From: a bacterium
GTDB lineage: Bacteria; Cyanobacteriota; Vampirovibrionia; Gastranaerophilales; Gastranaerophilaceae
DNA length: 64,000 nucleotides
NCBI GenBank assembly: GCA_017559905.1
Contig: JAFYQF010000023.1
Location: 1 to 64,000, forward strand
Direction: 5' to 3'
Positions within the stretch are counted from its first letter, which is position 1. Every line of letters begins with the position of its first letter. Of this stretch, positions 5,409 through 38,200 are shown piece by piece. The notes under the pieces were generated by a model that saw only the letters and a program-made list of their open reading frames with translations, did not search any database and was not told the origin of the DNA. The position numbers were made by a program, and so were the translations under genes.

Positions 5409-7061
5409 ATGATAAAACAATTACGAATAAAAGATTATATTTTAATAGATGAATTAACCGCAAATTTTCACGAGGGCTTAAACGTAATAACTGGTGAGAC
5501 AGGTGCGGGCAAAAGTATAATGATTAGCGCAATAGACCTAGCATTTGCACAAAGAGTTTCAAAAGAAGTTATTAAAAACGGATGCGAAAAAGCAACTATT
5601 GAATTATCAATAGAAAACACAAAACACAATCTAAAACCATTATTTGAAGAAAATGGAATAGATGACTTTGGTACAGAAATTGTTTTATCAAAAGAAATCA
5701 CCCCTAATGCAGTCAGAACAAGAGTAAACGGCACTCTAGTTAATCAAGATTTCGTAAGAAATTTACGTTCATTATTTTTGGACATTCATTCGCAACATCA
5801 AACATACTCATTTCTTCAACCTAAATACCATATTACGCTTTTAGACACTTACGCCAAAGATGTTTATGGTACAAAGTTGGAAGATTACAAGAACTTGTTT
5901 AGCGAATACACAGCTCTAAAAACCAAACTTGAAAAAGCTAAAAATTCTGCAGACGCAACAGAATCTCAAATTGAATTTTTAAAATTTCAAGTAAACGAAA
6001 TTGAAACAGCAGAAATCAAATCAGAAACAGAAGATGAAGAACTAGAACAAGAATTGGAAGTTTTAGAAAACGCAGAAAAGCTTAAAGAGCTCACGGGTTC
6101 ATCATATTGGGCTATCAATGGTGATGACGGGTCAATATTAGAAGCTTTAGGCAAAATAAAACAAAACGTGTCAAAAGCAGCATCGTTTGATAACAAACTA
6201 GAAGATTTGGAACAAAGCTTAATCGAAAGTATTGAAAATTTAAGAGAATTATCAAGTGATTTAAGAAATTACAGCCAGAATTTAGACAATGATACAGAGC
6301 GCCTTAACGAGATTCAAGAAAGATTATTTTTATTAGACAAACTAAAAAGAAAATATGGTGGAACTCTAGCTTCTGTTCTTGAAACGTTTGAAAAACTTTC
6401 AAACGAACTTTCTAATATAGAATTTTCAACCAAAAACATTGAAGAACTAGAAGCCCAAATTCTAAATACTGAAAAAACATTAATCCAAAAGGCTTCAGAA
6501 ATAAGCGAACACAGAAAAAATTATGCAAATGTATTATCCGTATACATTGCTGAACGCCTAACTAAATTAGAATTACCAAAAGCAAGATTTGAAATATCGA
6601 TAAAAGAAAAAGATTTGTCAGCAGATGGGGCTGATGATGTTGAATTTTTGATATCAACAAACGTTTCGGAAGATTTGAAACCATTAGCAAAAGTAGCATC
6701 AGGCGGAGAAATTTCTAGAGTTATGCTGGCAATAAAATCAATTTTTGCTCAAACAGATGATATTGATACTGTCATATTTGACGAAATCGACACTGGTATT
6801 TCAGGGAAAGCATCCCAAAGCGTTGCAGAAGAAATACTTGAGCTTTCAAAATACCATCAAATTATTTTGATTACTCACCAAGCAATTATAGCCTCAAAAT
6901 CAAATAAACATTTTTATGTTAGAAAATCTCAAGCTGACGAAACAAAAGTTGATGTTTATGTATTAACTGGAGACAACAAAATTAAAGCTCTAGCTGAACT
7001 TGCTGGTGGAGAAATTAATGAACAATCAATAGAATTCGCAAAATCATTAATAGAAACTTAA
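5409..7061 (+). CDS. recN: DNA repair protein RecN (SMC-like ATPase)
   Basis: 550 aa. The N-terminus 'LRIKDYILIDELTANFHEGLNVITGETGAGKSIMISAIDLAF' is canonical for RecN, followed by a long coiled-coil and a C-terminal ABC signature. Confidence 0.85.
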   Translation: MIKQLRIKDYILIDELTANFHEGLNVITGETGAGKSIMISAIDLAFAQRVSKEVIKNGCEKATIELSIENTKHNLKPLFEENGIDDFGTEIVLSKEITPNAVRTRVNGTLVNQDFVRNLRSLFLDIHSQHQTYSFLQPKYHITLLDTYAKDVYGTKLEDYKNLFSEYTALKTKLEKAKNSADATESQIEFLKFQVNEIETAEIKSETEDEELEQELEVLENAEKLKELTGSSYWAINGDDGSILEALGKIKQNVSKAASFDNKLEDLEQSLIESIENLRELSSDLRNYSQNLDNDTERLNEIQERLFLLDKLKRKYGGTLASVLETFEKLSNELSNIEFSTKNIEELEAQILNTEKTLIQKASEISEHRKNYANVLSVYIAERLTKLELPKARFEISIKEKDLSADGADDVEFLISTNVSEDLKPLAKVASGGEISRVMLAIKSIFAQTDDIDTVIFDEIDTGISGKASQSVAEEILELSKYHQIILITHQAIIASKSNKHFYVRKSQADETKVDVYVLTGDNKIKALAELAGGEINEQSIEFAKSLIET

Positions 7062-7074
7062 ATAAGGAGGTTAT

Positions 7075-8361
7075 ATGAATTGTGTAAAATGTAATACAGA
7101 ATTAGAGATCTTAAAAATCAAGAGTGCAAATATTCCATATTGCAAATCTTGTAAAGGTATGTGGATTAAATTTCCATACCTACAAAAAATTGCAGAGCAA
7201 ATTGAATTAAAAACAGATATCGTAAACCCTGTTGATATGGAACCAATTAAACATAAAGAACCACCAAAAACTTGCCCTCAATGTGGACAAGCAATGGACA
7301 AAATTTACTTCAATGGTACCGTTGTCGATGTTTGTAAAACTTGTAATGGAATATGGTTTGATAATGGCGAACTTTCAAAATATTTCAGCCTATTTATGAA
7401 ACAATATCCACAAATAACAGATAATATAACTTTTTTGGACAAATATTGCGACCCTGACCTAAAAGAGAAACAAGCTATTATTAATCAAGAAATAGAAATC
7501 CAAAGCAAAGAAAGAGAAAGACGCGTAATTTCTTTTAACGGTTTTGTAGTTTTATTTTTGTTATTATTTTTTGGCTTAATAGGATTTGTTGCATCAGTAG
7601 CATTTTCACCAATACTAGTTATTTTAATACCAATATTTATATTATCACTTATGGGCTTTAAAGTAATAAAACCTCAAGAAGCAATGGTATTAACAGTTTT
7701 TGGCAAATACATCGGTACATTAAGAGGTGCTGGTTTTCATTGGGTTAACCCATTTGCGCAGAGTGTAACACCATTTATTCCCATATCATTGAAAGCAATG
7801 ACTCTAGACACAGGCAAACAAAAAATCAACGACGAACTAGGAAATCCTATAGAAGTAGGCATCATCGTAATTTGGGAAGTTCAAGATACTGCAAAAGCGA
7901 TATTTAATGTTGAAAATTACAAAACATTTATCGCAGCACAAAGTGATTCTGCCTTGAGAAACATCGTTAGAATGTACCCTTACGATGCGCCAGAAGACTC
8001 TGGAGTACAATCATTAAGAGGCGATAGCGCTGAAATTTCGCACAAACTTAAAACTGAAATTCAACGAAACGTAAGAGTTGCTGGTATTAACGTAGTTGAT
8101 GCAAAAATCACTCACCTTGCATACGCTCCAGAAATCGCAGTAGCAATGCTTCAAAGACAACAAGCCGCTGCGGTAATTGATGCTAAAAAAGCAATTGTTG
8201 ACGGTGCTGTTGGAATGGTTGAAATGGCGCTTAATCGTTTGAACGAAAACAATGTCGTTAAACTCGATGAAGTTGAAAAAGCTAAAATGGTGAACAACTT
8301 ACTCGTAACGCTTTGTAGCAACAAGGAAGCTCAACCAGTATTAAAAAACAATCTTAATTAA
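7075..8361 (+). CDS. SPFH/band-7 (stomatin/prohibitin-like) membrane protein with two N-terminal zinc-ribbon modules
   Basis: Two CxxC...CxxC pairs lie in the first 100 aa, followed by a TM segment and an SPFH-like region ('MVLTVFGKYIGTLRGAGFHWVNPF...'). An AGGAGG RBS precedes the ATG. Confidence 0.65.
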   Translation: MNCVKCNTELEILKIKSANIPYCKSCKGMWIKFPYLQKIAEQIELKTDIVNPVDMEPIKHKEPPKTCPQCGQAMDKIYFNGTVVDVCKTCNGIWFDNGELSKYFSLFMKQYPQITDNITFLDKYCDPDLKEKQAIINQEIEIQSKERERRVISFNGFVVLFLLLFFGLIGFVASVAFSPILVILIPIFILSLMGFKVIKPQEAMVLTVFGKYIGTLRGAGFHWVNPFAQSVTPFIPISLKAMTLDTGKQKINDELGNPIEVGIIVIWEVQDTAKAIFNVENYKTFIAAQSDSALRNIVRMYPYDAPEDSGVQSLRGDSAEISHKLKTEIQRNVRVAGINVVDAKITHLAYAPEIAVAMLQRQQAAAVIDAKKAIVDGAVGMVEMALNRLNENNVVKLDEVEKAKMVNNLLVTLCSNKEAQPVLKNNLN

Positions 8362-8373
8362 TACAACACACAA

Positions 8374-8402
8374 GAGCGGACAAAATGTCCGCTCTTTTTT
8401 AT
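8374..8402. terminator. Bidirectional intrinsic terminator
   Basis: Hairpin agagcggac-aaaat-gtccgctct followed by TTTTTT, between convergent genes. Confidence 0.7.
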
Positions 8403-8417
8403 CACCTCCCTGACCAA

Positions 8418-9425
8418 CTAATCCTCAATAAAATCTTTAAAATGCCTCAACTCCTCTTTTGCTCTAATTTTTGCTAATGCAATGTCCTCTAATTGCCTAA
8501 TTCTCTCTTTTGAATAGCCCAGTTCTTGCCCCAGTTTTTCTAACGTCATAGGAGTATAACCATTTATACCAAATCGACAATTTATAATCTTTTTCTCCCT
8601 TTCTGTCAATGTCGATAACAAATGATTAATAGAACCTCTCAAAGTTGAAGTTTTTATTTGTTCTTCTGGCAATTTGTACAACTTATCCTGCACATAATCG
8701 CCAACACTCAAATCATCCGTAACTGGAGTTTCCAAACTAATTGGTTCTTTTATAATTGATTTTTTAATAGCAACCAACTTTTTCAAAGGTATACCCATTT
8801 TCAAAGCTACTTCACTATCTGTAGGCTCTCTCCCCAGTTCAAAAGACAAAATCGTAAATATTTTTTTGTATTTGCGAATTTTATCAGCCATATGGACTGG
8901 TATCCGAATAGTCCTTGAATTATTAGAAATAGCTCGCATAATAGTCTGTTTTATCCACCAAGTTGCATAAGTTGAAAACTTAAAATTTTTAGAATAATCA
9001 AATTTTTCAGCAGCTTTAATTAATCCCAAAGAGCCTTCCTGCACCAAATCCATAAACAAAACACCTTGCCCAATATACTTTTTAGCAATACTTACAACAA
9101 GACGTAAATTTGCCTGCACAAGTTTTCGCTTTGCAATTTGAGCTTGCGTTGCTTTTCCTTCCTTAATTTGCTTGCCTAAAGATTTTTCTTCCTTTGAAGA
9201 TAACAAACTAATTTTCCCAATATCTTTTAAATACATTTGCAACAAATCATCTTCATTAGCAATCGCATTAAAAGTTTTAGGTTCTAACTCAATATTTTCA
9301 TCGTCACAATATACAATGTCTGATTGCAAATAATTAGTTTGCAAATCCTTGAACAAATCAACACTACTATTATTTAATTTCATACTTAAACCCATTAATA
9401 GCCCTCTCCTCAATAAACTATCCAA
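8418..9425 (-). CDS. RNA polymerase sigma factor, sigma-70 (RpoD/SigA-like) family
   Basis: The protein contains region 2 ('[54 protein letters not shown]'). Regions 3 and 4.2 HTH are also present. Confidence 0.85.
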
Positions 9426-9555
9426 TTTTAAAGACGCTAATACCTAAAAAAAGTTTCAAACTCTGAATATTATTAAGTTTTATTAAGCCAAATTAAAGAT
9501 TTAATCACAAAATACCGTAAAGGAAAAGTGAGGGAAACAACGAAAGGAATTTGTC

Positions 9556-11343
9556 ATGGGAATGGCAGCATCTCAAGCTAGATTTTTAGGTCTAACTGCG
9601 AGAAAAAATAACGTTGAATACGAGGGACAACAGATAAATCAGCAAAGAACTGCTTTATCAAACCAGTCTGCAAATTATTACAACGATATGCTAGGTATGA
9701 CAGTTCCAGTACCTCCATCTATCCAAGATTTTACAAAAATTGTTTATACATTTGAAGACGGAGCATTAACAAATACAATTACATCATTAATAGCACAAGC
9801 TGACGGTAGCTATATTGCTAGTTATTTAAGCAATTTTCAACAAGATTTTTCTATCGTATCAGCAGGCGAAGACCTTATAGTTAACTCTCAAAACAATGTT
9901 GGTGTAGGCGCAAACGGCAACATTTACAGAATTGGCGCAAACGAAATCAAAGCTATTGGCGAATTTGCACGTGATAACGTTGCAACAAACATTCAAGGAC
10001 AAAATTTTAGACTAGACAACGAAAACTCTTACATTAATGCTAATGGCGAAAAAATCACACTTATCCAACCTACCTATGATATTATTACATCAATCATAGG
10101 CAAAGAACCACAACGTGCAGATTACGACTTACAAGGAATGGCACTTAACTATGCCTCAACACAATGCTACGCAGGCGTTGATATAAATAACGCATACGGT
10201 ATGGGGCATATGGAACATAACTTGTGCCATTTAGTTTGGGGTAATAGCGAAAGAAGCATCACTTCATCTTCTGGTGTAACAATAACTAAAACTAGCCCTA
10301 CTACAGAAGCATCATTAACTGAGCCTGGTTGGGGTTCTGCCGCTAACGGAAGTGAAATATTATTATTCAAAGAAAAATTACAAGAAGTTTATCCAGACGT
10401 TTATCAAAAGATTGTAGACCTTTATGTTGATACAATCCTATATTTAAGCGATCACCAATACAACAACACTTCTTACGACCCACAAACAGAAAACTACACA
10501 ATTTCAACTACAAACTACGACCACAACCAAATTACTGAAGAAAATATGTTTCCACGTTGGGAAGCATTATGGGAAGAACTTAAATCATTAAGTCCAGACA
10601 GTCTATACAAAAGAGATCACGAAATTTGGCAAACACAATACGACGAATATAGAGACATTTGGCTTAATAGCAACGATTATAACGACATCTACACAGTAGA
10701 AGAAGCTCTATTCTATGACGGAAACGACCCATACCTAAAAAGCTTAAGTTCAGAAGAACTTGAAAAACAAAAAACAAGCGAAATCGAATGGGCAACTATG
10801 TTAGAAAACGAATACGGCATTCCAGAAAACGGTGGCTGGTATATTCGCTACATCCCAAACGCAACAGGCAACGGTTTTGACCCTGTATTTTATAACGGAA
10901 ATCATTTAGCAACAGGTGAAAAAACTGAAAACGGCAATATCTACACTTCAATCAAACGTTTCACTATTGGCAAAAAAGAAGTTAACCGTGAAGTTAAAAA
11001 CGTAAAATCAGTAATGGAAAGAGATACATCTGGACGTTATATAAGCATTACAACATTTGATATTTATGGAAATAGTACAACTTATGCACTAACAACAAAT
11101 ACCCTTACCGACAACGATGCATATAACGATGCAATGAACAAATACGAACACGAAAAATATTTGTACGAACAAGCTGTTCAAGAAATCAATTCAAAAATTG
11201 AAATTACACAAGTTCAAGACAAAAACTTGGAATTACGTTTGAAACAACTAGACACAGAACACAACGCTATTCAAACAGAAATAGATGCAGTTAAAAAAGT
11301 TATTGAAAAGAATACCGAATCTTCTTTTAAAACTTTCGGTTAA
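9556..11343 (+). CDS. Hypothetical protein with C-terminal coiled-coil
   Basis: 595-aa ORF whose N-terminus reads 'MGMAASQARFLGLTARKNN' and whose C-terminus is a heptad-rich coiled-coil. An 11-bp gap to the next gene suggests an operon. Confidence 0.55.
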   Translation: MGMAASQARFLGLTARKNNVEYEGQQINQQRTALSNQSANYYNDMLGMTVPVPPSIQDFTKIVYTFEDGALTNTITSLIAQADGSYIASYLSNFQQDFSIVSAGEDLIVNSQNNVGVGANGNIYRIGANEIKAIGEFARDNVATNIQGQNFRLDNENSYINANGEKITLIQPTYDIITSIIGKEPQRADYDLQGMALNYASTQCYAGVDINNAYGMGHMEHNLCHLVWGNSERSITSSSGVTITKTSPTTEASLTEPGWGSAANGSEILLFKEKLQEVYPDVYQKIVDLYVDTILYLSDHQYNNTSYDPQTENYTISTTNYDHNQITEENMFPRWEALWEELKSLSPDSLYKRDHEIWQTQYDEYRDIWLNSNDYNDIYTVEEALFYDGNDPYLKSLSSEELEKQKTSEIEWATMLENEYGIPENGGWYIRYIPNATGNGFDPVFYNGNHLATGEKTENGNIYTSIKRFTIGKKEVNREVKNVKSVMERDTSGRYISITTFDIYGNSTTYALTTNTLTDNDAYNDAMNKYEHEKYLYEQAVQEINSKIEITQVQDKNLELRLKQLDTEHNAIQTEIDAVKKVIEKNTESSFKTFG

Positions 11344-23667: not shown

Positions 23668-23739
23668 TCCTCAGTAGCTCAATGGCGGAGCAACCGGCTG
23701 TTAACCGGTAGGTTGTTGGTTCGAGTCCAACCTGGGGAG
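23668..23739 (+). tRNA. tRNA-Asn (anticodon GTT)
   Basis: Cloverleaf with acceptor TCCTCAG/CTGGGGA, anticodon stem ACCGG/CCGGT, loop CTGTTAA and T-loop TTCGAGT. CCA is not encoded. Confidence 0.85.
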
Positions 23740-25295
23740 TTTTTTAATGCAAAGTTTGCATAAGTGGTTTCAACCCCAGGTAGGACAGTCGTTTTCACGT
23801 TTCGATATTTAGAGTTTTTTTTTACTAATTCGAGTTGATTTTTTACTAAATCTTGGAAAAACGGTCGTAATTTTATGTCAAAATGCTTGTCTTTGTAAAG
23901 AATTGCTTCGGCAATTATATTAATTATTTTCTTACGCTGATGCATTGTCCCACGGATAAATAAATCATGTATGTTATCCAAGAAACCAAGCATAATCCCT
24001 GTATCATCATAAAACTGTTTTTCCAAGTCGTTAATTGTCTGAAGCTGTATCAAAAATCTTTCTTTTTCATCTTGCCATTTTTTATTAAACCTTACCCAAT
24101 CCTCATGGCTTATATTCCCATCAAGTTTTAATTCAATCGAGTTCTCAATACGATTTTCTAACTGCTCGATCTGTCTTTTAAGCGTTGCTTTCACCTCTTT
24201 TGTGTAGCCAAGTTTCTTTAGATGTTCTTCCCTTAAATCATCTGCGATAGTATCTCGCATCTCTTTAGGGATTACAATCAATTTAAGCACCTCTGCAAAG
24301 GCTCTATCAACCTTTTCTTCATTAATATAGTCTTGCTTACAAGTACCACCTTTATAGCCCGTACAATGGTAATAAACGTACCTGTAATTACCTTGTCTGT
24401 CTCTTTTGTTTTCTGCTGTAATTTGACAACCGCAATGCCCACAGTGCATTAAACCTGTATAAGCAAATTCCAAGTTATGTTTCTTTGATTTATTAGGGTC
24501 TCGTAACCTATCCTGAACCCTGTAAAATAAAGCTTTACTAATGATGGCTTTATGCTTACCATTATCATAGATCTTATTCATATACTTATAAGATCCAGTG
24601 TAGAATATGTTTTTGAGCATATACTCCACAGTACTACAAGGTATTGCTTTGCCATTTTGGTTTTTAAACCCATCTTCTTGCAATTTTTTAGTTAAAGTGT
24701 TTAGCGAATAAAGCCCACTGTCGTACAATTCAAATGCGCGCCTTACATATATGGCTCTATTTTCATCAATAACAATCGCTTTTGAACCATTAGGGTTTGT
24801 AACGTTAAGGTAACCTATTGGAGCAAGACTTGGATAATCACCTTGCTCTGCTTTTTGTTTTAGTGCAGCAACTGTTCTTGCAGCAATTACTTTTCTCTCG
24901 TACTCTGCAAAATTTATCCCAATGTTTCGCATCAAATCACCCTCTAAGGTATCTACATTGGCCTCTGTTGCAATAAGAAGTTGAATATCATTTTTGACAA
25001 ACAACGGCTTTAATATCCCGTGATAATCTGTATTACTTCTTGAAATTCTATCTAAACGCCAAACAACTACGGCTTTAACGTTGTTTTGTTTTTTCTTGCA
25101 ATAAGCGATTAAATCTTGAATATCCGGTCTTTCAAGATTCTTACCGGATTTACCATCATCTACAAAAATCTTGCTAACGTGATAACCATTCTTGCTCGCA
25201 AATTCAATGCAATCTTTCTTTTGCTTGTCAATACTCACACCAAGTTTGTTTCTGTCCTCGGCAGAAACACGTGCGTACACAACGGCTTTGTTCAT
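23679..25295 (-). CDS. Large serine recombinase (resolvase-N + recombinase + zinc-ribbon domains)
   Basis: The N-terminus 'VVYARVSAEDR...' has the serine-recombinase catalytic domain. A Cys cluster 'CGHCGC...YYHCTGYKGGTC' follows. The 3' ~20 codons overlap tRNA-Asn. Confidence 0.85.
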   Translation of the reverse strand: MNKAVVYARVSAEDRNKLGVSIDKQKKDCIEFASKNGYHVSKIFVDDGKSGKNLERPDIQDLIAYCKKKQNNVKAVVVWRLDRISRSNTDYHGILKPLFVKNDIQLLIATEANVDTLEGDLMRNIGINFAEYERKVIAARTVAALKQKAEQGDYPSLAPIGYLNVTNPNGSKAIVIDENRAIYVRRAFELYDSGLYSLNTLTKKLQEDGFKNQNGKAIPCSTVEYMLKNIFYTGSYKYMNKIYDNGKHKAIISKALFYRVQDRLRDPNKSKKHNLEFAYTGLMHCGHCGCQITAENKRDRQGNYRYVYYHCTGYKGGTCKQDYINEEKVDRAFAEVLKLIVIPKEMRDTIADDLREEHLKKLGYTKEVKATLKRQIEQLENRIENSIELKLDGNISHEDWVRFNKKWQDEKERFLIQLQTINDLEKQFYDDTGIMLGFLDNIHDLFIRGTMHQRKKIINIIAEAILYKDKHFDIKLRPFFQDLVKNQLELVKKNSKYRNVKTTVLPGVETTYANFALKNSPGWTRTNNLPVNSRLLRH

Positions 25296-26051: not shown

Positions 26052-26906
26052 ATGATTTATTTAAACACTTTTTCTTTCCCAACGCTTGAAGATGAAAACG
26101 ACTTCAGATTTTCACAGAATAGAACTTGTTATACAAGCATTTATCCATATGGGATTTTGTCAAAAAATACAATTGAAAAACTAGTTTTTGAACCAATTAC
26201 TATTTTATACGGTGGAAATGGTTGCGGCAAAAGCACGGCTTTAAATGTTATTGCTGAAAAATTAAAACTTGAAAGAGATAACCTATACAACAAAAGTAAT
26301 TTTTTTAATGATTACAAAAAACGTTGTAGATATGAAACAAATGGCATTCCCACTCATAGCAGAATAATAACTAGCGATGATGTTTTTGATTTTACGATGA
26401 ATTTGAGATATTTAAATGAAGGACTAGATAGACAAAGAGAAAATCTTTTAGACGAAGCTTACCGAAGAAAAACTTATCAATTCAAGATGAAAAGCTTAGA
26501 TGATTATGATGAATTTAAAAGAAACATGATTGCACAACAAAAATCTCAATCTGAATTTGTAAGACAATATATGCTACCAAATGTTAAAGAACAATCAAAT
26601 GGGGAAAGTGGATTCATGTATTTTACGAGTAAAATTCAAAATGATGCGCTCTACTTACTTGATGAACCTGAAAACAGTCTTTCTCCAGAAAAGCAAAAAG
26701 AATTGCTACAATTTATTTATGATAGTGCTAGATTTTACAATTGCCAATTTATTATAGCTACGCATTCTCCATTTTTGTTGTCGATAAAAGATGCAAAAAT
26801 TTACGACTTCGATGAAACACCCGTTAAAGTAAAGCCTTGGACAGAATTAAAAAATGTTAGAGAATATTATAACTTTTTCAAACTGCACGAAAAAGATTTT
26901 ATTTAA
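26052..26906 (+). CDS. Soluble ABC/AAA_21-like ATPase
   Basis: Walker A 'GGNGCGKST', signature-like 'SNGESG', Walker B 'LYLLDEPENSL' and H-loop 'IATHSP' are all present. No TM segments. Confidence 0.75.
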   Translation: MIYLNTFSFPTLEDENDFRFSQNRTCYTSIYPYGILSKNTIEKLVFEPITILYGGNGCGKSTALNVIAEKLKLERDNLYNKSNFFNDYKKRCRYETNGIPTHSRIITSDDVFDFTMNLRYLNEGLDRQRENLLDEAYRRKTYQFKMKSLDDYDEFKRNMIAQQKSQSEFVRQYMLPNVKEQSNGESGFMYFTSKIQNDALYLLDEPENSLSPEKQKELLQFIYDSARFYNCQFIIATHSPFLLSIKDAKIYDFDETPVKVKPWTELKNVREYYNFFKLHEKDFI

Positions 26907-26994: not shown

Positions 26995-27861
26995 ATGACA
27001 AAAATAGAAATTCTAAATGGTGATATAACAAAGTTAAAAGTCGATGCGATAGTTAATGCTGCCAATAAAAGTTTATTAGGTGGCGGTGGTGTTGATGGAG
27101 CAATTCATCGTGCTGCTGGACATAAACTTTTAGAAGAGTGCCAAACTCTGAATGGATGTGAAACAGGACAATCTAAAATAACCAAAGGTTACAACTTACC
27201 TGCAAAATTCGTTATACACACAGTAGGACCTGTTTGGTACGGAGGGAATAAAAATGAACGAGAAATGCTTAAATCTTGTTATCATACAGCATTAACTCTT
27301 GCCAAAGAAAATGGAGTTAAAACAATTGCATTCCCTGCAATTTCTTGTGGCGTTTACCGTTTTCCATTAGAAGAAGCTTGTGCCATTGCAACTGAAACTG
27401 TAAAAGACTTCATTTCAAACGACGACAGCTTTGAGAAAATAATTTTTATAGATATTAACGAAGAAATTATTAATCTATATTTAGATTTAAGTGATATAAA
27501 TTCCAGATGTCAAAAATTACCAAAAATTAAACCACAAGATTTTAAATGGGGTGGAGGATTTAAAAACTCTAAAGAAGGTGAAACACCACAATTTCCTTAC
27601 GTAATTTATACTGAAAATGTTCTCGAATGGGTTCGATGTTATTATAAATTAGAGTTAATAATGCCAAATTACGTTGAATACGTAAACAATGCAGATTTTC
27701 GAAATAAAAAATTCAAAAATTATTCAAGAAATGATATTCTAAATTTGCTAACATACTATATTCGCCAAGATAGATTTTGCGAAGGTCTGTTGGCTGGCAA
27801 AATCAAATCCGGTGAAGTAACTGAACTCGTTGACAGATTGCACGAAATAACAAAGGGATAG
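26995..27861 (+). CDS. Macro-domain (ADP-ribose-binding/processing) protein with ~115-aa C-terminal extension of unknown function
   Basis: '[27 protein letters not shown]' is the canonical macro signature, preceded by an AAGGAG RBS. The C-terminal region is unassigned. Confidence 0.8.
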
Positions 27862-27874
27862 GTGAACTTATGTA

Positions 27875-28240
27875 GAGAATATTTCTTTTCGGAAGTATTT
27901 ATTGTATAATTGTTTATGGCAGAATCGATAAGAACGATGAGCTATAGTTTCTTTTCGGAAGTATTTATTGTATAATCTAAAATGGTGTAGTATTCCATAG
28001 AACCGTGCTATAGTTTCTTTTCGGAAGTATTTATTGTATAATTAAGGCTGAATAGTGCTGAAGTCCATTACAGCTATAGTTTCTTTTCGGAAGTATTTAT
28101 TGTATAATCGCAAGTGAATTCACCGGTGACGCAAAACGGCTATAGTTTCTTTTCGAAAGTATTTATTGTATAATTAGAATTACATTACTGTTAAGAAAGG
28201 AGGCGCTATAGTTTCTTTTCGAAAGTATTTATTGTATAAT
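27875..28240 (+). CRISPR. CRISPR array: 6 x 36-bp repeats (GCTATAGTTTCTTTTCGGAAGTATTTATTGTATAAT), 5 x 30-bp spacers
   Basis: Repeats lie at 27875 (5'-degenerate), 27941, 28007, 28073, 28139 and 28205. Spacers are exactly 30 bp. Repeats 5-6 carry a G18A variant, and each repeat ends in TGTATAAT. Confidence 0.95.
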
Positions 28241-28325: not shown

Positions 28326-28490
28326 TTAATAATTAGAAATATGAATTTGTGGATTTTCTAAAATGATTGTTCCAATATCTTCCATTGGAATTGTAACTTC
28401 GTCATCAGAATCGAGAGCTTGGTGTACAAGCTGTCGATTCTTGATATGAAGTTTGCAAGGATTTGAAAATAGTAAAGTTTTATAACTCAT
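28326..28490 (-). pseudogene. cas1: cas1 remnant (N-terminal 54 codons only)
   Basis: The translation 'MSYKTLLFSNPCKLHIKNRQLVHQALDSDDEVTIPMEDIGTIILENPQIHISNY*' resembles type II Cas1 N-termini (SpCas1 '...SKLSYKNNHLIF...EIDILLLETTDIVLTT'). Its ATG overlaps the cas9 stop in ATGA. The remaining ~250 codons and cas2 are absent. Confidence 0.6.
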
Positions 28491-31619: not shown

Positions 31620-31648
31620 TTGACAGTCTAAACTTTGTTTGTTATCAT
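31620..31648 (+). promoter_or_regulatory. Sigma-70 promoter of tracrRNA (TTGACA-17bp-TATCAT)
   Basis: The -35 is at 31620-31625 and the -10 at 31643-31648. The anti-repeat begins ~4-8 nt downstream. Confidence 0.55.
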
Positions 31649-31651
31649 ACG

Positions 31652-31745
31652 ATTGTACAATAAATACTTTCGAAACGTTACTATAGTAAGAAGTTTTCGA
31701 AAAGTTTCTAGCAGATACATTTTAATATGTATCTGCTATCTTTTA
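31652..31745 (+). ncRNA. tracrRNA
   Basis: The anti-repeat at 31652-31690 can pair with 33 of 36 repeat positions (including G-U pairs) with a 3-nt internal mismatch. A palindromic TTTTCGAAAA hairpin follows. The terminator is agcagataca-ttttaata-tgtatctgct followed by ATCTTTT. Confidence 0.75.
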
Positions 31746-31747
31746 GT

Positions 31748-32143
31748 TTATTTTTCATTATTTTCTTTTGCAAAATTTGCAGTATCTTGAATTAATTTTA
31801 TAGCCTTATTACTATCGTGCATTTCTTGCCCATACAAAACAATGTTATCTTCAAAATAATTCCCGTGCAGTTCAATTACATTTTTTGAACCTGCTTTTGT
31901 ATGTAAATTATCGACATTCATTGTAATAATTGGAATATCTAATTCTGCAAGGATTTTGTGTGCCTTTGTTGGTTCTCGGTCTTTAACGTTATTTATAAGC
32001 AAATCAATTGCGTCTTTAAACTCTTTTGGATATTGTTCTTTAAATTCAACGGACAATTTTTCTTTAATTCCAGGTATTTCCTCAAATGTTGGAATACCAG
32101 CTGATTTTGAAATTCCTGCACCTGTAAAAGCTATTATTTTCAT
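31748..32143 (-). CDS. Mini Sir2-like protein (131 aa)
   Basis: 'GAGISKSAGIPTF', 'ITMNVDNLHTKAG' and 'IELHGN' match the sirtuin NAD-binding and catalytic-His core. The Zn-ribbon module and C-terminal half are missing. An AGGAGG RBS is present. Confidence 0.65.
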   Translation of the reverse strand: MKIIAFTGAGISKSAGIPTFEEIPGIKEKLSVEFKEQYPKEFKDAIDLLINNVKDREPTKAHKILAELDIPIITMNVDNLHTKAGSKNVIELHGNYFEDNIVLYGQEMHDSNKAIKLIQDTANFAKENNEK

Positions 32144-32237
32144 AAACTACCTCCTAGATAAGTTAACTATAAACCACTTTTCGTAAGTTGGCATCCATGA
32201 AATTGTCTAGATAAAATTATGTATTTTTTTGAATTTG

Positions 32238-32400
32238 TGATATTATAGGTTCGTAAATAACCTATAAAGAGTGTACGAGGGACAAGCCCGTTGACTACAC
32301 AGCAACCCTTTAAGTTGGGTGCTAATGCTTGAATGATAGGTCAAAACTTTAAGTCGGAAACCTATCACTATGGGTTTCTTTTTTGTTGCTCTTATAGGTT
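32238..32400 (+). ncRNA. Candidate structured RNA / 5' leader with intrinsic terminator
   Basis: Hairpin ataggtt-cgtaaat-aacctat is present. Long-range complement aacctataaagag/ctcttataggtt and an internal gataggt/acctatc pair also occur. A terminator-like gaaacc-N10-ggtttc followed by TTTTTT sits 50 nt before the ATG at 32433. Confidence 0.25.
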
Positions 32401-32432
32401 GGTAGTACTTAATTAAAAAAGGAGAAAAACTT

Positions 32433-32750
32433 ATGGAACAACAAAAGAAGTATCAAGTTGATTTGTACATTGGATTATTAGCCCCCGATGATTTTATGCA
32501 ACATTTTACCGTTAAAAAAGCAGTTGACACAATAACAGAAGTCATTGGAGATTGCACAATTATACCTTGTATTGGTTCTTGTTCACATACGACAGGTATA
32601 AGAATAAATTTAAACACTTTAAAAATAACAAAATTTATTGATTATGCACCAGAACAATTGATAAACAAAGTCGAAAAACTAAAGAAAATCTTTAATCAAT
32701 ATGAAATTCTTATGAATACCATAAAATGTGATAATTTTAGAATTATTTAA
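32433..32750 (+). CDS. Hypothetical protein (105 aa)
   Basis: ORF with an AAAGGAG RBS and no recognisable motif. Confidence 0.45.
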   Translation: MEQQKKYQVDLYIGLLAPDDFMQHFTVKKAVDTITEVIGDCTIIPCIGSCSHTTGIRINLNTLKITKFIDYAPEQLINKVEKLKKIFNQYEILMNTIKCDNFRII

Positions 32751-32805
32751 TTTTCAGTTGATAAATAAAAGCCTAGACAATAAATCTAGGCTTTTATTAT
32801 CGTTT

Positions 32806-32952
32806 AAACAAATCCCAAAAACTTTTTATCTCGCGTTTCTGTTTTTTAGGTTGCTTTTTGCGTTGATGCTGAACATGTTTGTCGTCATCTTCAAACAAAC
32901 CAAACTGAATATCTGCTTCAATTAAATCTTCCAAGTCATCAAAATCAAACAT
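32806..32952 (-). CDS. Small acidic hypothetical protein (~49 aa)
   Basis: 'MFDFDDLEDLIEADIQFGLFEDDD...'. Its start overlaps the stop of the upstream small ORF (TAATG). Confidence 0.3.
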
Positions 32953-33217: not shown

Positions 33218-33832
33218 TTAGAATTTACTTGCTTTCGCACGTGCTTGCAATTCTGCTATTAATTCTTCGGTTGAAAATTCACTTAAACCAGGACTTGTAT
33301 TTTCAAACATATTGCATATAACTTCCGAATACACATCCGGACGCATATTGGCATACTGTTCTAAGATAGTTTCAACTTCCCAATGCCCAATATTTTGGCT
33401 TAGTGCTTTCAATTCTTTACCTGTATGAGCTTTTTCTAAGCCTTTACTTACCATGTAATGTCTAAACGAATGAGGATTATAATCCTTTATGCCAGCTTGC
33501 CTACACATCTTTTTGATGATCTCATTATATTTCGTATTGCTATAATTTTTGTTAACCAATTGAACACCAGATGCATAATTCTTTATCTGTGGGAATAAAA
33601 GGATTTTATTTCCCGAAATATTAGATTTAACATATTCGACCCATTCTTTCAGATACTGCAAATACATTTTATCCAAAACCATAAATCTTGTATAAATTAG
33701 TTTGTCTAATTTTGTGTGAGTATCTTCTAAAGGATCCTGTTTTACCATCAACTTTTGAAAGTCAATCAAATTTATTGTAATAGTCGCAACAGCATCAATT
33801 CTTGCAGCTGTTAACAACATATACGAAATCAA
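33218..33832 (-). pseudogene. Tyrosine recombinase/integrase, N-terminally truncated (catalytic domain only)
   Basis: Box I 'LLTAARIDAV', 'HSFRHYMVS' and 'GHWEVETILEQYANM' cover the R..HxxR..Y catalytic residues. The N-terminal core-binding domain is absent and the fragment abuts a Fic fragment on the opposite strand. Confidence 0.7.
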
Positions 33833-33839
33833 AGCACGA

Positions 33840-34454
33840 TTGCGTGAATCCTCAACTGTATTTGATGGTGAAAAAGTTGAGCATCTTGCACCACCTGCAA
33901 AAAGAGTTCCAGAACTTATGTTTGATTTGTTTGAATGGCTTAAAACAAGTGATGTACATCCATTAATAAAAAGTTGTGTTTTTCATTATGAATTTGAATT
34001 TATTCATCCTTTTCAAGATGGAAATGGCAGAATGGGACGTTTATGGCAAACAGCTATTTAAAAAGAGTGGAAAGAAGTTTTTGCCTGGCTTCCGGTCGAA
34101 ACATTAATCAAAGAAAATCAAAAAGAATATTACAAAGTTCTTGCAGTGAGTGATAGTGTTGCAAATAGTACAAAATTCATTGAATTTATGTTGTCTATCA
34201 TCCTAAACACAATCAATGAAATTATTGAAACTGAGAAAAAGGTTACTGCAAAGGTTACTCTAAAGGTTAGTGTAAATCAACAAAAAATTATCGACGCAAT
34301 CAAGAGTAACCCTAAAGTTACTCAAGAAGGACTTGCTGAAATTGTTGGAATCACAAGAAAAAGCGTCATCTCTAACATGAAAAAACTTCAAGAAAACGGA
34401 TTGATAAATCGTATCGGCGCAGATAAAAATGGGTATTGGAAAGTTGTAGAATAA
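33840..34454 (+). pseudogene. Fic/DOC family protein, 5'-truncated with single in-frame TAA (34059-34061)
   Basis: The Fic motif 'HPFQDGNGRMGR' is present. The same frame continues after the TAA ('KEWKEVFAWLPVETLIKENQKEYY...') into a C-terminal winged-HTH ('ITRKSVISNMKKLQENGLINR'). Confidence 0.7.
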
Positions 34455-35781: not shown

Positions 35782-35874
35782 ATTAAAACCTCATTGTACA
35801 TTTTACATTATTAATATAAGCCACCCCTATGACAAATACGGACGCAACAAACAATACCTCAACCTATAAACATA

Positions 35875-36032
35875 AAAAATCATCTACTCGCTTAATCATC
35901 CATAGTATTTCTTGCATACTTGGTTCAAAAAATCTTTTGTATAAAGTTTCAATGAATGCTTCCCAACTCTCGCAGGATGGGGAGTTTTTTAATGTCAAAT
36001 TTAAAGCGAGGTTTGTCCTCGCTTTTTGTTAC
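35875..36032 (+). repeat. Direct repeat copy A (~160 bp, ~92% identical to copy B); contains att-like core and a terminator hairpin
   Basis: Aligns base-for-base with 38044-38200. It includes gcgagg...cctcgc followed by TTTTT. Confidence 0.8.
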
Positions 36033-37659: not shown

Positions 37660-38046
37660 ATGAACAAGCAAGAACAACTTATAAAATTTGGAATAGCGTT
37701 AAAAAATAGACGTCAAGCGCTTAACTTGAGTCTTAGAGATGTTGAGAAAATATCTAATATTAGTGCTGCATTAATCACCAAACTTGAAAACGGTAAGATG
37801 GCAAATTTTCCTAAAGCATTAACTATTAAACAACTTAGCGATGCTTTAAAATTTGATAACGAATTATTTCTTCTTGCAGATATTTTAAATGAATCCCCAC
37901 AAGTTGCAAAATCCGAAAAAACTTTTGAAGAAGAATTTAGAGAATTTTTAGCAACAAAAACCACCCTAAATGCTGAAAATATTGAACAAACCTTATATTT
38001 TGTATCAGGATTAGAAAAATTACAACAAATAAAGAATATTAATTAA
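37660..38046 (+). CDS. XRE-family helix-turn-helix transcriptional regulator
   Basis: 'LKNRRQALNLSLRDVEKISNISAALITKLENGK' is a classic HTH_XRE. Confidence 0.7.
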   Translation: MNKQEQLIKFGIALKNRRQALNLSLRDVEKISNISAALITKLENGKMANFPKALTIKQLSDALKFDNELFLLADILNESPQVAKSEKTFEEEFREFLATKTTLNAENIEQTLYFVSGLEKLQQIKNIN

Positions 38047-38200
38047 AAATCATCTATACGCTTAATCATCCAAAGTATGTCTTGCATACTTGGTTCAAAA
38101 AATCTTTTGTACAAGGTTTCAATGAATGCTTCCCAACTCTCGCAGGAGATGGAGTTTTTTATTGTCAAAATTAAAGCGAGGTTTGTCCTCGCTTTTGTTT
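38044..38200 (+). repeat. Direct repeat copy B
   Basis: See copy A. The core here reads GATGGAGTTTTTTATTG (degenerate). Confidence 0.8.

What the first reader, a model, noticed from the sequence alone, without database searches (positions are those of the whole stretch)
31748..32143. 131-aa mini-Sir2 directly abutting the tracrRNA: catalytic core present, Zn-ribbon and C-terminal Rossmann half absent
The ORF retains three sirtuin hallmarks (GAGISKSAGIPTF, TMNVDNLHTKAG, IELHGN) and even a 'VLYGE' motif. It lacks the Cys4 zinc module and the GTS-containing C-terminal half. It has a strong RBS and shares a bidirectional terminator with the tracrRNA.

Two readings are possible. It may be a truncated remnant of a defence-type SIR2 NADase such as Thoeris ThsA, DSR or SIR2-HerA. 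Alternatively it is a minimal NAD-binding module that works with a partner.

It sits next to Cas9 and, two genes away on the other side of the array, a macro domain that binds ADP-ribose. That juxtaposition suggests an NAD/ADPR-based defence or signalling cassette travelling with the Cas9.
Basis: partly seen in the sequence, partly recalled or inferred. Interest (0 to 1): 0.65.

Follow-up and report, generated by a model that had tools for sequence, protein, structure and literature searches.

The report
Deletion-truncated remnant of a short sirtuin gene
The 131-residue "mini-Sir2" is the front two-thirds of a 180-residue zinc-free sirtuin gene, cut off by a roughly 1.9 kb deletion that joined it to the Cas9 locus, so it is most likely a dead gene remnant and not a new NAD-signalling partner of Cas9.

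Summary
The ORF (31748..32143, minus strand) and its sirtuin motifs are real: Pfam SIR2 E=3.8e-15, matching only the first 115 of 180 profile positions.

It is not a minimal module. More than 100 close relatives, up to 95% identical, are about 180 aa. They continue past the window's last residue with AVLLVIGTSMQT…NADEEV, which is the second half of the Rossmann fold.

DNA homology to intact loci stops exactly after codon 131. The next bases, which supply the TAA stop, belong to the sequence just 3' of the tracrRNA terminator. Two related contigs overlap and rebuild the likely ancestor: sirtuin(180)–resolvase–ParB–tracrRNA–cas9. The window is that arrangement minus about 1.9 kb.

The missing zinc ribbon is a genuine trait of the parent family. 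That family groups with canonical CobB/Sir2Tm enzymes, not with defence SIR2 proteins (ThsA, DSR). It occurs mainly in Gastranaerophilales-like gut bacteria, and no NCBIfam model names it.

There is no conserved linkage to cas9 or to the macro-domain gene. The closest cas9 locus (99% identical) has no sirtuin. Eighty-five loci with sirtuin relatives have no macro gene and no cas9.

Verdict: an ordinary gene remnant in a decaying mobile-element island. The zinc-free 180-aa parent family is a modest curiosity.

The parts
31748..32143 (-). Truncated sirtuin ORF: codons 1-131 of a gene that is 180 codons in relatives, plus a TAA stop
   Evidence: It is 95% identical to the 180-aa proteins P0002-P0004 over all 131 residues and ends at ...KENNEK, where they continue AVLLVIGTSMQT...
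31748..31751 (-). Deletion junction. The last base of codon 131 (31751) is the last position homologous to intact sirtuin loci. The TAA stop (31750-31748) comes from the sequence 3' of the tracrRNA terminator
   Evidence: BLAST end points; alignments A1 and A3; 1 nt of microhomology
32144..32243 (-). Retained 5' region of the sirtuin gene: RBS AGGAGG at 32150-32155 and a promoter-like site at 32166-32194
   Evidence: Conserved at about 96% with the intact loci L001 and L093; promoter scan (9 of 12 matches, weak evidence)
31620..31747 (+). tracrRNA unit convergent with the ORF: promoter 31620-31648, anti-repeat 31652-31686, terminator hairpin 31709-31738 with a T-rich tail
   Evidence: The same sequence follows ParB_N in L089
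28487..31594 (-). cas9 (1035 aa), now the neighbour of the remnant because of the deletion
   Evidence: TIGR01865 E=1e-239; Pfam HNH_4 and RuvC_III

Best explanation
The ORF is the 5' remnant of a chromosomal gene for a roughly 180-aa, zinc-ribbon-less sirtuin of the canonical CobB/Sir2Tm type. In the ancestor the gene was followed by a resolvase gene, a ParB_N gene, and then the tracrRNA-cas9 locus. A deletion of about 1.9 kb removed sirtuin codons 132-180, the resolvase gene and the ParB gene. It fused codon 131 to the sequence just 3' of the tracrRNA terminator, which immediately supplies a TAA stop. (Shown: the break point, the lengths of the homologs, and the overlapping relatives. Inferred: that the event was a single deletion.)

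The promoter-like site and strong RBS survive, so a 131-aa polypeptide may still be made. It keeps the GAGIS loop, the nicotinamide pocket (N76, D78) and the catalytic His93. It has lost two of the five Rossmann strands and the GTS and N-A-D motifs. In sirtuins those motifs hold the pyrophosphate and adenosine ribose of NAD+ (established sirtuin structural knowledge). It is therefore most likely unable to fold stably or bind NAD+, which makes it a recent pseudogene (inferred).

Its position beside Cas9 is an accident of the deletion, in an island full of other remnants.
For: Homolog lengths:
- Of the 120 best homologs, essentially all are 178-200 aa. The few shorter ones are on contigs of 2 kb or less.
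- The 31-sequence alignment shows nearly invariant L-x-I-G-T-S-M-Q-T and A-D after the window's last residue.

Break point and ancestor:
- Homology to the intact loci L001 and L093 (96%) ends at window 31751, which is the end of codon 131.
- L093 carries sirtuin(180)-resolvase-ParB_N.
- L093 positions 701-2407 match L089 positions 6107-7814 at 97%.
- L089 positions 7844-11132 match window 31751-28464 at 98%.

Other support:
- No trace of the missing 49 residues exists anywhere in the 64-kb window.
- The same junction is 100% identical on 6 contigs from several samples and assemblers, so it is not an assembly artefact.
- The AF2 model of the 180-aa protein (pLDDT 93) has five strands, at residues 2-7, 72-74, 89-91, 132-137 and 159-163. 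The 131-aa model keeps only three.
- The neighbourhood is decayed. cas1 is cut to 54 codons and cas2 is absent, where L090 and L092 have both complete. The integrase is cut to 204 of 365 aa.
Against: - No internal stop, frameshift or damaging substitution has accumulated. dN/dS against the intact L001 copy is 0.21 (8 synonymous, 7 conservative non-synonymous changes). Decay of the retained part is therefore not demonstrated, and the event is recent.
- Expression signals are intact.
- AF2 still models the fragment confidently (pLDDT 93.7), though that reflects the alignment and not stability.
- No single contig with the full predicted ancestor (sirtuin-resolvase-ParB-tracrRNA-cas9) was found. 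The ancestor is assembled from two overlapping relatives.
- No experiment has tested activity.
Confidence: 0.88

Rival explanations
1. The 131-aa protein is a functional minimal NAD-binding or NAD-cleaving module that works with a partner such as Cas9, the macro protein or another subunit.
For: The GAGIS loop, N76, D78 and His93 are retained. The RBS and a promoter-like site are intact. There is no decay in the retained part. The form is found on 6 contigs.
Against: All 6 contigs are one lineage with a DNA-identical junction. Every other relative is about 180 aa. The end of the ORF is a deletion break point, not an evolved terminus. Two core strands and the GTS and NAD motifs are lost. No partner is conserved.
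Confidence: 0.05
2. It is a remnant of a defence-type SIR2 NADase (Thoeris ThsA, DSR1/2, SIR2-HerA) from a defence island.
For: There are weak PADLOC hits to ThsA (E=0.002) and Dsr1 (E=0.009). It lacks a zinc module, as defence SIR2_2 proteins do (PMC12700824). It sits in an island with defence-like genes.
Against: The Pfam hit is PF02146 and not PF13289. The intact relatives are stand-alone 180-aa proteins with no SLOG, HerA or other effector or sensor partner. Foldseek ranks Sir2Tm, Sir2Af and CobB first (E about 1e-12, TM 0.8). SPARSA and FAM118B score E of 1e-5 or worse and TM 0.4-0.56. Sister proteins of about 200 aa still have a CxxC...CxxC ribbon, so the zinc loss is secondary within the canonical clade.
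Confidence: 0.03
3. The truncation arose because a mobile cas9-carrying element inserted into the sirtuin gene, rather than by deletion. The 3' part of the gene would then lie at the far end of the element.
For: A large serine recombinase (23679..25295) and integrase remnants flank the region. The island is modular: L093 has an integrase after ParB where L089 has cas9.
Against: No sirtuin 3' remnant exists within 32 kb on either side. The L093 and L089 overlap explains the window by simple loss of an internal 1.9 kb. No repeats flanking the junction were examined beyond 1 nt of microhomology.
Confidence: 0.07
4. The sirtuin, Cas9 and the macro-domain protein form an NAD/ADP-ribose signalling or defence cassette that travels together.
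For: The macro protein is a MacroD-type O-acetyl-ADP-ribose deacetylase (NF001664, 220.5 bits against a cut-off of 200). Its substrate is the product of sirtuin deacylation (established biochemistry).
Against: The macro gene is on the opposite strand, 3.9 kb away, beyond cas9, the cas1 remnant and the array. No macro homolog lies near any of 85 sirtuin-relative loci or near 4 related cas9 loci. The 99%-identical cas9 locus lacks the sirtuin. The sirtuin copy here is broken.
Confidence: 0.02

Closest known systems
Canonical bacterial and archaeal sirtuins (CobB, Sir2Tm, Sir2Af; Pfam PF02146)
   Same: Best sequence and fold matches. It shares the GAGIS loop, the N-x-D nicotinamide pocket, the catalytic HG and an FGE-like LYG[QE] loop. 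In intact relatives it also shares the GTS and N-A-D motifs.
   Different: The parent family is only about 180 aa. The roughly 32-column Cys4 zinc ribbon is excised (alignment A5). The Arg of GIPDFR is Glu (PTFEE) and the Gln of TQNID is Met (TMNVD), both conserved family-wide. No NCBIfam CobB model comes near its cut-off (94.5 against 320 bits). The window copy additionally lacks the last 49 residues.
Short-ribbon sister sirtuins of about 200 aa (Clostridiales, Sumerlaeota and Bacillota MAGs; loci L012, L013, L017, L018)
   Same: 33-37% identical, with the same PTF[QEA][DE] and TMNID motifs and the same compact helical module.
   Different: They retain a compact CxxC...CxxC zinc ribbon. The Gastranaerophilales family, and separately the roughly 185-aa Erysipelotrichales and Acholeplasmatales proteins (Faecalibacillus, Stoquefichus), do not.
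Defence SIR2 NADases (ThsA, DSR2, SPARSA; Pfam SIR2_2) and FAM118
   Same: They have a Sir2 Rossmann core with no zinc module (PMC12700824).
   Different: They are a different clade with a seven-stranded sheet and are fused or paired with sensor or effector domains. Sequence matches are sub-threshold and fold matches poor.
Class M macrodomain-linked sirtuins (SirTM; PMC4518038)
   Same: A sirtuin and a macro-domain gene lie in the same neighbourhood.
   Different: SirTMs have QG instead of the catalytic HG, keep a zinc domain, and sit in an operon with the macro, GcvH-L and LplA2 genes. Here HG is retained, there is no zinc domain, the macro gene is not adjacent or co-oriented, and the linkage is not conserved.

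Membership tests
Sirtuin / SIR2 (Pfam PF02146) | Match to the family HMM above the gathering score | tested here: met
   56.7 bits against 24, E=3.8e-15, but only profile positions 1-115 of 180 are covered
Sirtuin / SIR2 (Pfam PF02146) | Catalytic HG histidine and N-x-D nicotinamide pocket | tested here: met
   ELHGN (H93) and TMNVD (N76, D78), invariant in the 31-sequence alignment
Sirtuin / SIR2 (Pfam PF02146) | Complete Rossmann fold including the GTS strand and the N..D adenosine-ribose motif | tested here: not met
   The window ORF stops before AVLLVIGTS...NADEEV, which is present in all close relatives. The model keeps 3 of 5 strands
Sirtuin / SIR2 (Pfam PF02146) | Cys4 zinc-binding ribbon between HG and FGE | tested here: not met
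   There are no Cys pairs. The ribbon columns are absent in the window copy and in the whole 180-aa family, but present in the roughly 200-aa sisters and in a 237-aa Aquifex CobB-like protein
Sirtuin / SIR2 (Pfam PF02146) | Conserved Arg of GIPDFR and Gln of TQNID | tested here: not met
   GIPTFEE and TMNVD. E21 is nearly invariant and M75 invariant in the family
Sirtuin / SIR2 (Pfam PF02146) | NAD+-dependent deacylase activity | not testable with these tools
   Needs an enzyme assay on both the 131-aa and the 180-aa proteins
Defence SIR2 (ThsA / DSR / SIR2-HerA; Pfam SIR2_2, PADLOC models) | Significant match to SIR2_2 or PADLOC defence models | tested here: not met
   No PF13289 hit at E up to 1. 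ThsA 14.8 bits (E=0.002) and Dsr1 11.7 bits
Defence SIR2 (ThsA / DSR / SIR2-HerA; Pfam SIR2_2, PADLOC models) | Fusion to, or operon with, a sensor or effector partner (SLOG, HerA, pAgo, large DSR C-terminal region) | tested here: not met
   Intact relatives are stand-alone 180-aa proteins in varied, mostly housekeeping or island-edge contexts
Class M sirtuins (SirTM) | QG replaces the catalytic HG; adjacent macro-domain gene, GcvH-L and LplA2 (PMC4518038) | tested here: not met
   HG is retained. The macro gene is 3.9 kb away on the other strand. No macro gene lies near 85 relatives
Pseudogene / gene remnant | Shorter than all close orthologs, with a definable DNA break point and the missing part absent | tested here: met
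   131 against about 180 aa. Break point at 31751|31750. No remnant in the window
Pseudogene / gene remnant | Relaxed selection or loss of expression | tested here: inconclusive
   dN/dS is 0.21 against the intact copy, but only 15 differing codons, so most divergence probably predates the deletion. Expression could not be tested

The most novel reading that the evidence does not exclude
The remnant itself is dead, but it points to an undescribed clade of roughly 180-aa stand-alone sirtuins. They occur in Gastranaerophilales (Melainabacteria-like gut bacteria), with parallel forms in Erysipelotrichales and Acholeplasmatales. They belong to the canonical CobB/Sir2Tm lineage yet have secondarily lost the whole zinc module, and they carry invariant Arg-to-Glu and Gln-to-Met changes in the NAD pocket. 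Canonical sirtuins are reported to need the zinc module for deacetylation (PMC12700824). These proteins could therefore be the smallest natural sirtuin cores, with a different activity (NADase or ADP-ribosyltransferase) or a different mode of substrate binding. The alternative novel reading, that the 131-aa fragment is functional, is given about 5%.
Probability: 0.3. Interest if true: 0.5.

Novelty: new member of a known kind. Interest (0 to 1): 0.18.

Why it matters
For the window, the result matters mainly as a correction. The apparent Cas9-sirtuin-macrodomain "NAD cassette" is an artefact of a deletion in a decaying mobile-element island, so it should not be pursued as a new defence or signalling system. 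NCBI currently labels the ORF 'hypothetical protein'; it is better annotated as a truncated sirtuin gene.

The useful by-product is the parent family, a widespread, un-named, zinc-free 180-aa sirtuin of the canonical clade. It could serve as a minimal scaffold for studying what the zinc module contributes to sirtuin chemistry.

Tried and rejected
- tblastn of the missing C-terminal 49 residues against the whole window gave only chance hits, best E=0.097. A split or relocated 3' half within 64 kb is therefore rejected.
- A scan of JGI metagenome contigs with Cas9 confirmed no relative. I used the protein database plus contig look-ups instead.
- dN/dS of the remnant against the intact copy was 0.21. 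It rests on too few differences, most probably older than the deletion, to show relaxed selection.
- AF2 of the 131-aa fragment gave a confident partial fold. This reflects co-evolution in the alignment and says nothing about stability, so I used it only to count the surviving strands.
- A Metallophos gene is a neighbour of the sirtuin in only two contexts (L005 and L006/L007) and is absent from the window. It gives no functional lead.
- The weak Pfam DUF386/YhcH hit (22 bits against a cut-off of 26.5) was judged spurious.
- Literature searches for zinc-less canonical sirtuins or Melainabacteria sirtuins found descriptions of zinc-less SIR2_2 and FAM118 proteins only. Nothing on this family turned up, and absence from this library is not proof that it is undescribed.
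- An assembly chimera is rejected, because the junction is identical in several independent assemblies.

Full report
**1. The observation**

The ORF at 31748..32143 on the minus strand encodes 131 aa, exactly as reported. It contains GAGISKSAGIPTF, TMNVDNLHTKAG and IELHGN. The match to sirtuins is far beyond chance:
- Pfam SIR2 (PF02146) E=3.8e-15, covering only profile positions 1-115 of 180.
- The best solved relatives are Thermotoga Sir2Tm, Archaeoglobus Sir2Af, CobB and SIRT5.
- An AGGAGG RBS lies 6 nt upstream of the ATG.

The tracrRNA next door is also real. On the + strand there is a promoter TTGACA-17-TATCAT at 31620-31648 and a hairpin terminator at 31709-31738. An anti-repeat at 31652-31686 is complementary to the six 36-nt CRISPR repeats at 27882-28240. 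The ORF's stop codon lies 10 nt from that hairpin.

**2. Homologs are consistently longer**

A search of 5.8 billion proteins gave 1007 hits. The 120 best are 55-100% identical and essentially all 178-200 aa. The only identical sequence is this ORF itself, which NCBI labels 'hypothetical protein'. The three closest relatives (95% identical) are 180 aa. They continue past the window's last residue (…KENNEK) with AVLLVIGTSMQTAFANILVLIARANGMNDLYIDNNADEEVEQFFRLIKV. In a 31-sequence alignment, L-x-I-G-T-S-M-Q-T and A-D in that tail are nearly invariant. The window copy is therefore the odd one out, missing 49 residues.

**3. The end of the ORF is a DNA break point**

- Locus L001 carries an intact 95%-identical gene and is collinear with the window on the 5' side. 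Homology stops exactly after codon 131, at window 31751.
- In the pairwise alignment the window reads …GAA AAA | TAA ACT AAA AGA TAG CAG ATA C…. The intact gene reads …GAA AAA | GCG GTG TTG CTA GTT ATC GGA ACT TCT.
- The bases after the bar in the window are the sequence immediately 3' of the tracrRNA terminator.
- The same bases follow a ParB_N gene in locus L089, whose cas9 is 99% identical.
- Locus L093 carries sirtuin(180)–resolvase(–)–ParB_N.
- L093 1-532 matches window 32282-31751 at 96%. L093 701-2407 matches L089 6107-7814 at 97%. L089 7844-11132 matches window 31751-28464 at 98%.

Put together, the window equals sirtuin–resolvase–ParB–tracrRNA–cas9 minus about 1.9 kb. The lost stretch is sirtuin codons 132-180, the resolvase gene and the ParB gene. 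There is 1 nt of microhomology at the junction.

No trace of the missing C-terminus exists anywhere in the 64-kb window. The junction is 100% identical on six contigs from several samples and assemblers, so it is not a chimera.

**4. What was lost**

AlphaFold2 on the 180-aa P0002 gave pLDDT 93 and pTM 0.88. The model is a compact Rossmann fold with strands at residues 2-7, 72-74, 89-91, 132-137 and 159-163, plus a helical module. Foldseek against the PDB puts Sir2Tm, Sir2Af and CobB on top, with E about 1e-12 and query TM 0.79-0.84.

The 131-aa model keeps only the first three strands. The lost segment contains the GTS and N-A-D motifs. In solved sirtuins these bind the pyrophosphate and adenosine ribose of NAD+ (established structural knowledge; compare the description of the equivalent loops in SpySirTM).

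I infer that the fragment cannot fold stably or bind NAD+. This step is inference and has not been shown.

The retained part shows no decay. It differs from L001 at 8 synonymous and 7 conservative non-synonymous codons, giving dN/dS of 0.21. The deletion is therefore recent, and the promoter-like site and RBS may still drive synthesis of a truncated peptide.

**5. The missing zinc ribbon is a family trait**

The whole 180-aa family lacks the Cys4 ribbon. In an alignment with a 237-aa Aquifex CobB-type protein and with sister proteins of about 200 aa, 32 ribbon columns are simply absent. Those sisters come from Clostridiales, Sumerlaeota and Bacillota MAGs. They share the unusual PTF[QEA][DE] and TMNID motifs but still have a short CxxC…CxxC ribbon. 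The loss is therefore secondary within the canonical clade.

Zinc-less forms of about 185 aa also occur in Faecalibacillus intestinalis, Candidatus Stoquefichus and Acholeplasmatales. The nearest named genome is a Candidatus Gastranaerophilales MAG at 59% identity.

A scan of 1.84 billion cluster representatives found many single-stretch relatives of 165-210 aa, down to about 35% identity. No NCBIfam model reaches its cut-off; the best is CobB at 94.5 against 320 bits. I found no paper describing the family.

It is not a defence SIR2. There is no SIR2_2 hit, PADLOC hits are only sub-threshold, fold matches to SPARSA and FAM118B are poor, and there are no partner domains.

It is not a class M sirtuin either. 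Those have QG in place of HG, keep a zinc domain and sit in an operon with a macro gene (PMC4518038).

**6. No cassette with Cas9 or the macro domain**

- Intact family members sit in varied contexts. Neighbours include OEP/MIP/MntP, WCX and Metallophos genes, a type III-like restriction-modification system, and DarT–NADAR.
- The gene often lies at the edge of variable islands.
- tblastn with the window's macro protein, AAA_21 ATPase and Cas9 against 85 sirtuin-relative loci (0.92 Mb) found none of them. The related cas9 loci contain no macro gene and no sirtuin.
- Cas9 relatives at 78% identity have GerE or WYL genes upstream and complete cas1-cas2.
- The macro protein is a MacroD-type O-acetyl-ADP-ribose deacetylase (NF001664 above its cut-off) with a DUF6508 tail. 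This is a generic biochemical link to sirtuins, but there is no genomic link here.

**7. Context**

The region is a graveyard of remnants:
- cas1 is cut to 54 codons and cas2 is gone (about 1.06 kb missing relative to L090).
- The tyrosine integrase is cut to 204 of 365 aa.
- A Fic-motif fragment lies nearby.

The truncated sirtuin is one more casualty.

**8. Verdict**

The proposals of a defence-type origin, a minimal functional module and a Cas9-linked NAD/ADPR cassette are not supported. Interest is low. The parent zinc-free 180-aa sirtuin family is a modest lead in its own right.

Noticed in passing
window 32259-32342 (+), terminator 32356-32379, ORF 32433-32750 (+): A SAM-I riboswitch (RF00162, 54.6 bits against a gathering score of 44.4, with the P4 stem missing) and a terminator-like expression platform precede a 105-aa ORF that has no Pfam, NCBIfam or PADLOC family. 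This 630-bp block (32244-32875) is present in L089 but absent from L001. In L092 a similar leader (85% identical) precedes a 189-aa ORF.
   Followed up: partly
window 28326-28490 (-) and 27882-28240: The CRISPR-Cas9 locus has lost its adaptation genes. cas1 is reduced to a 54-codon N-terminal stub that abuts the six-repeat array, and cas2 is absent. Related loci (L090, L092, 78% cas9 identity) have full cas1 (294 aa) and cas2 (110 aa). cas9 itself is intact.
   Followed up: partly
window 27882-28240 (+): Each 36-nt repeat ends in TTGTATAAT, a -10-like box. Repeat and anti-repeat polarity indicate that crRNAs are read from the + strand, opposite to cas9. This resembles the repeat-internal promoters of type II-C systems (from memory, not tested).
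   Followed up: no
window 33218-33832 (-) and 33840-34061 (+): A tyrosine integrase is truncated to 204 aa (365 aa in L001 and L089; homology starts at window 33863). Directly beside it is a short ORF with a Fic-type HPFQDGNGRMGR motif. These are further gene fragments in the same island.
   Followed up: partly
window 26052-26906 (+) and 26995-27861 (+); 23679-25295 (-): A co-oriented pair lies next to a 538-aa large serine recombinase. One gene is an AAA_21/AAA_15 ATPase with partial PtuA/AriA-like PADLOC hits. The other is a MacroD-type macro domain fused to DUF6508, with no PADLOC hit. This may be a two-gene accessory or defence module. Its conservation elsewhere was not examined.
   Followed up: partly
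window 35872-36026 and 38042-38196: Two 155-bp direct repeats, 92% identical, flank a roughly 2.2-kb segment encoding a 264-aa protein, a 190-aa protein and an HTH protein. Their meaning is unknown.
   Followed up: no
L001 1424-3198: In the relative with the intact sirtuin, a DarT (DNA ADP-ribosyltransferase) and NADAR toxin-antitoxin pair sits between the integrase and the sirtuin. The window lacks it. This is another NAD-using module in the same hotspot, but the linkage is not conserved.
   Followed up: no
L095 1681-9144; L005 3090-3179 and 8867-9967: In other genomes the intact sirtuin gene borders variable islands. Examples are an SNF2/ResIII helicase with DUF4391, an N6_N4 methyltransferase and a restriction endonuclease, and an AbiH fragment with a Fic gene. 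This suggests the gene's 3' side is a recurrent integration hotspot.
   Followed up: no
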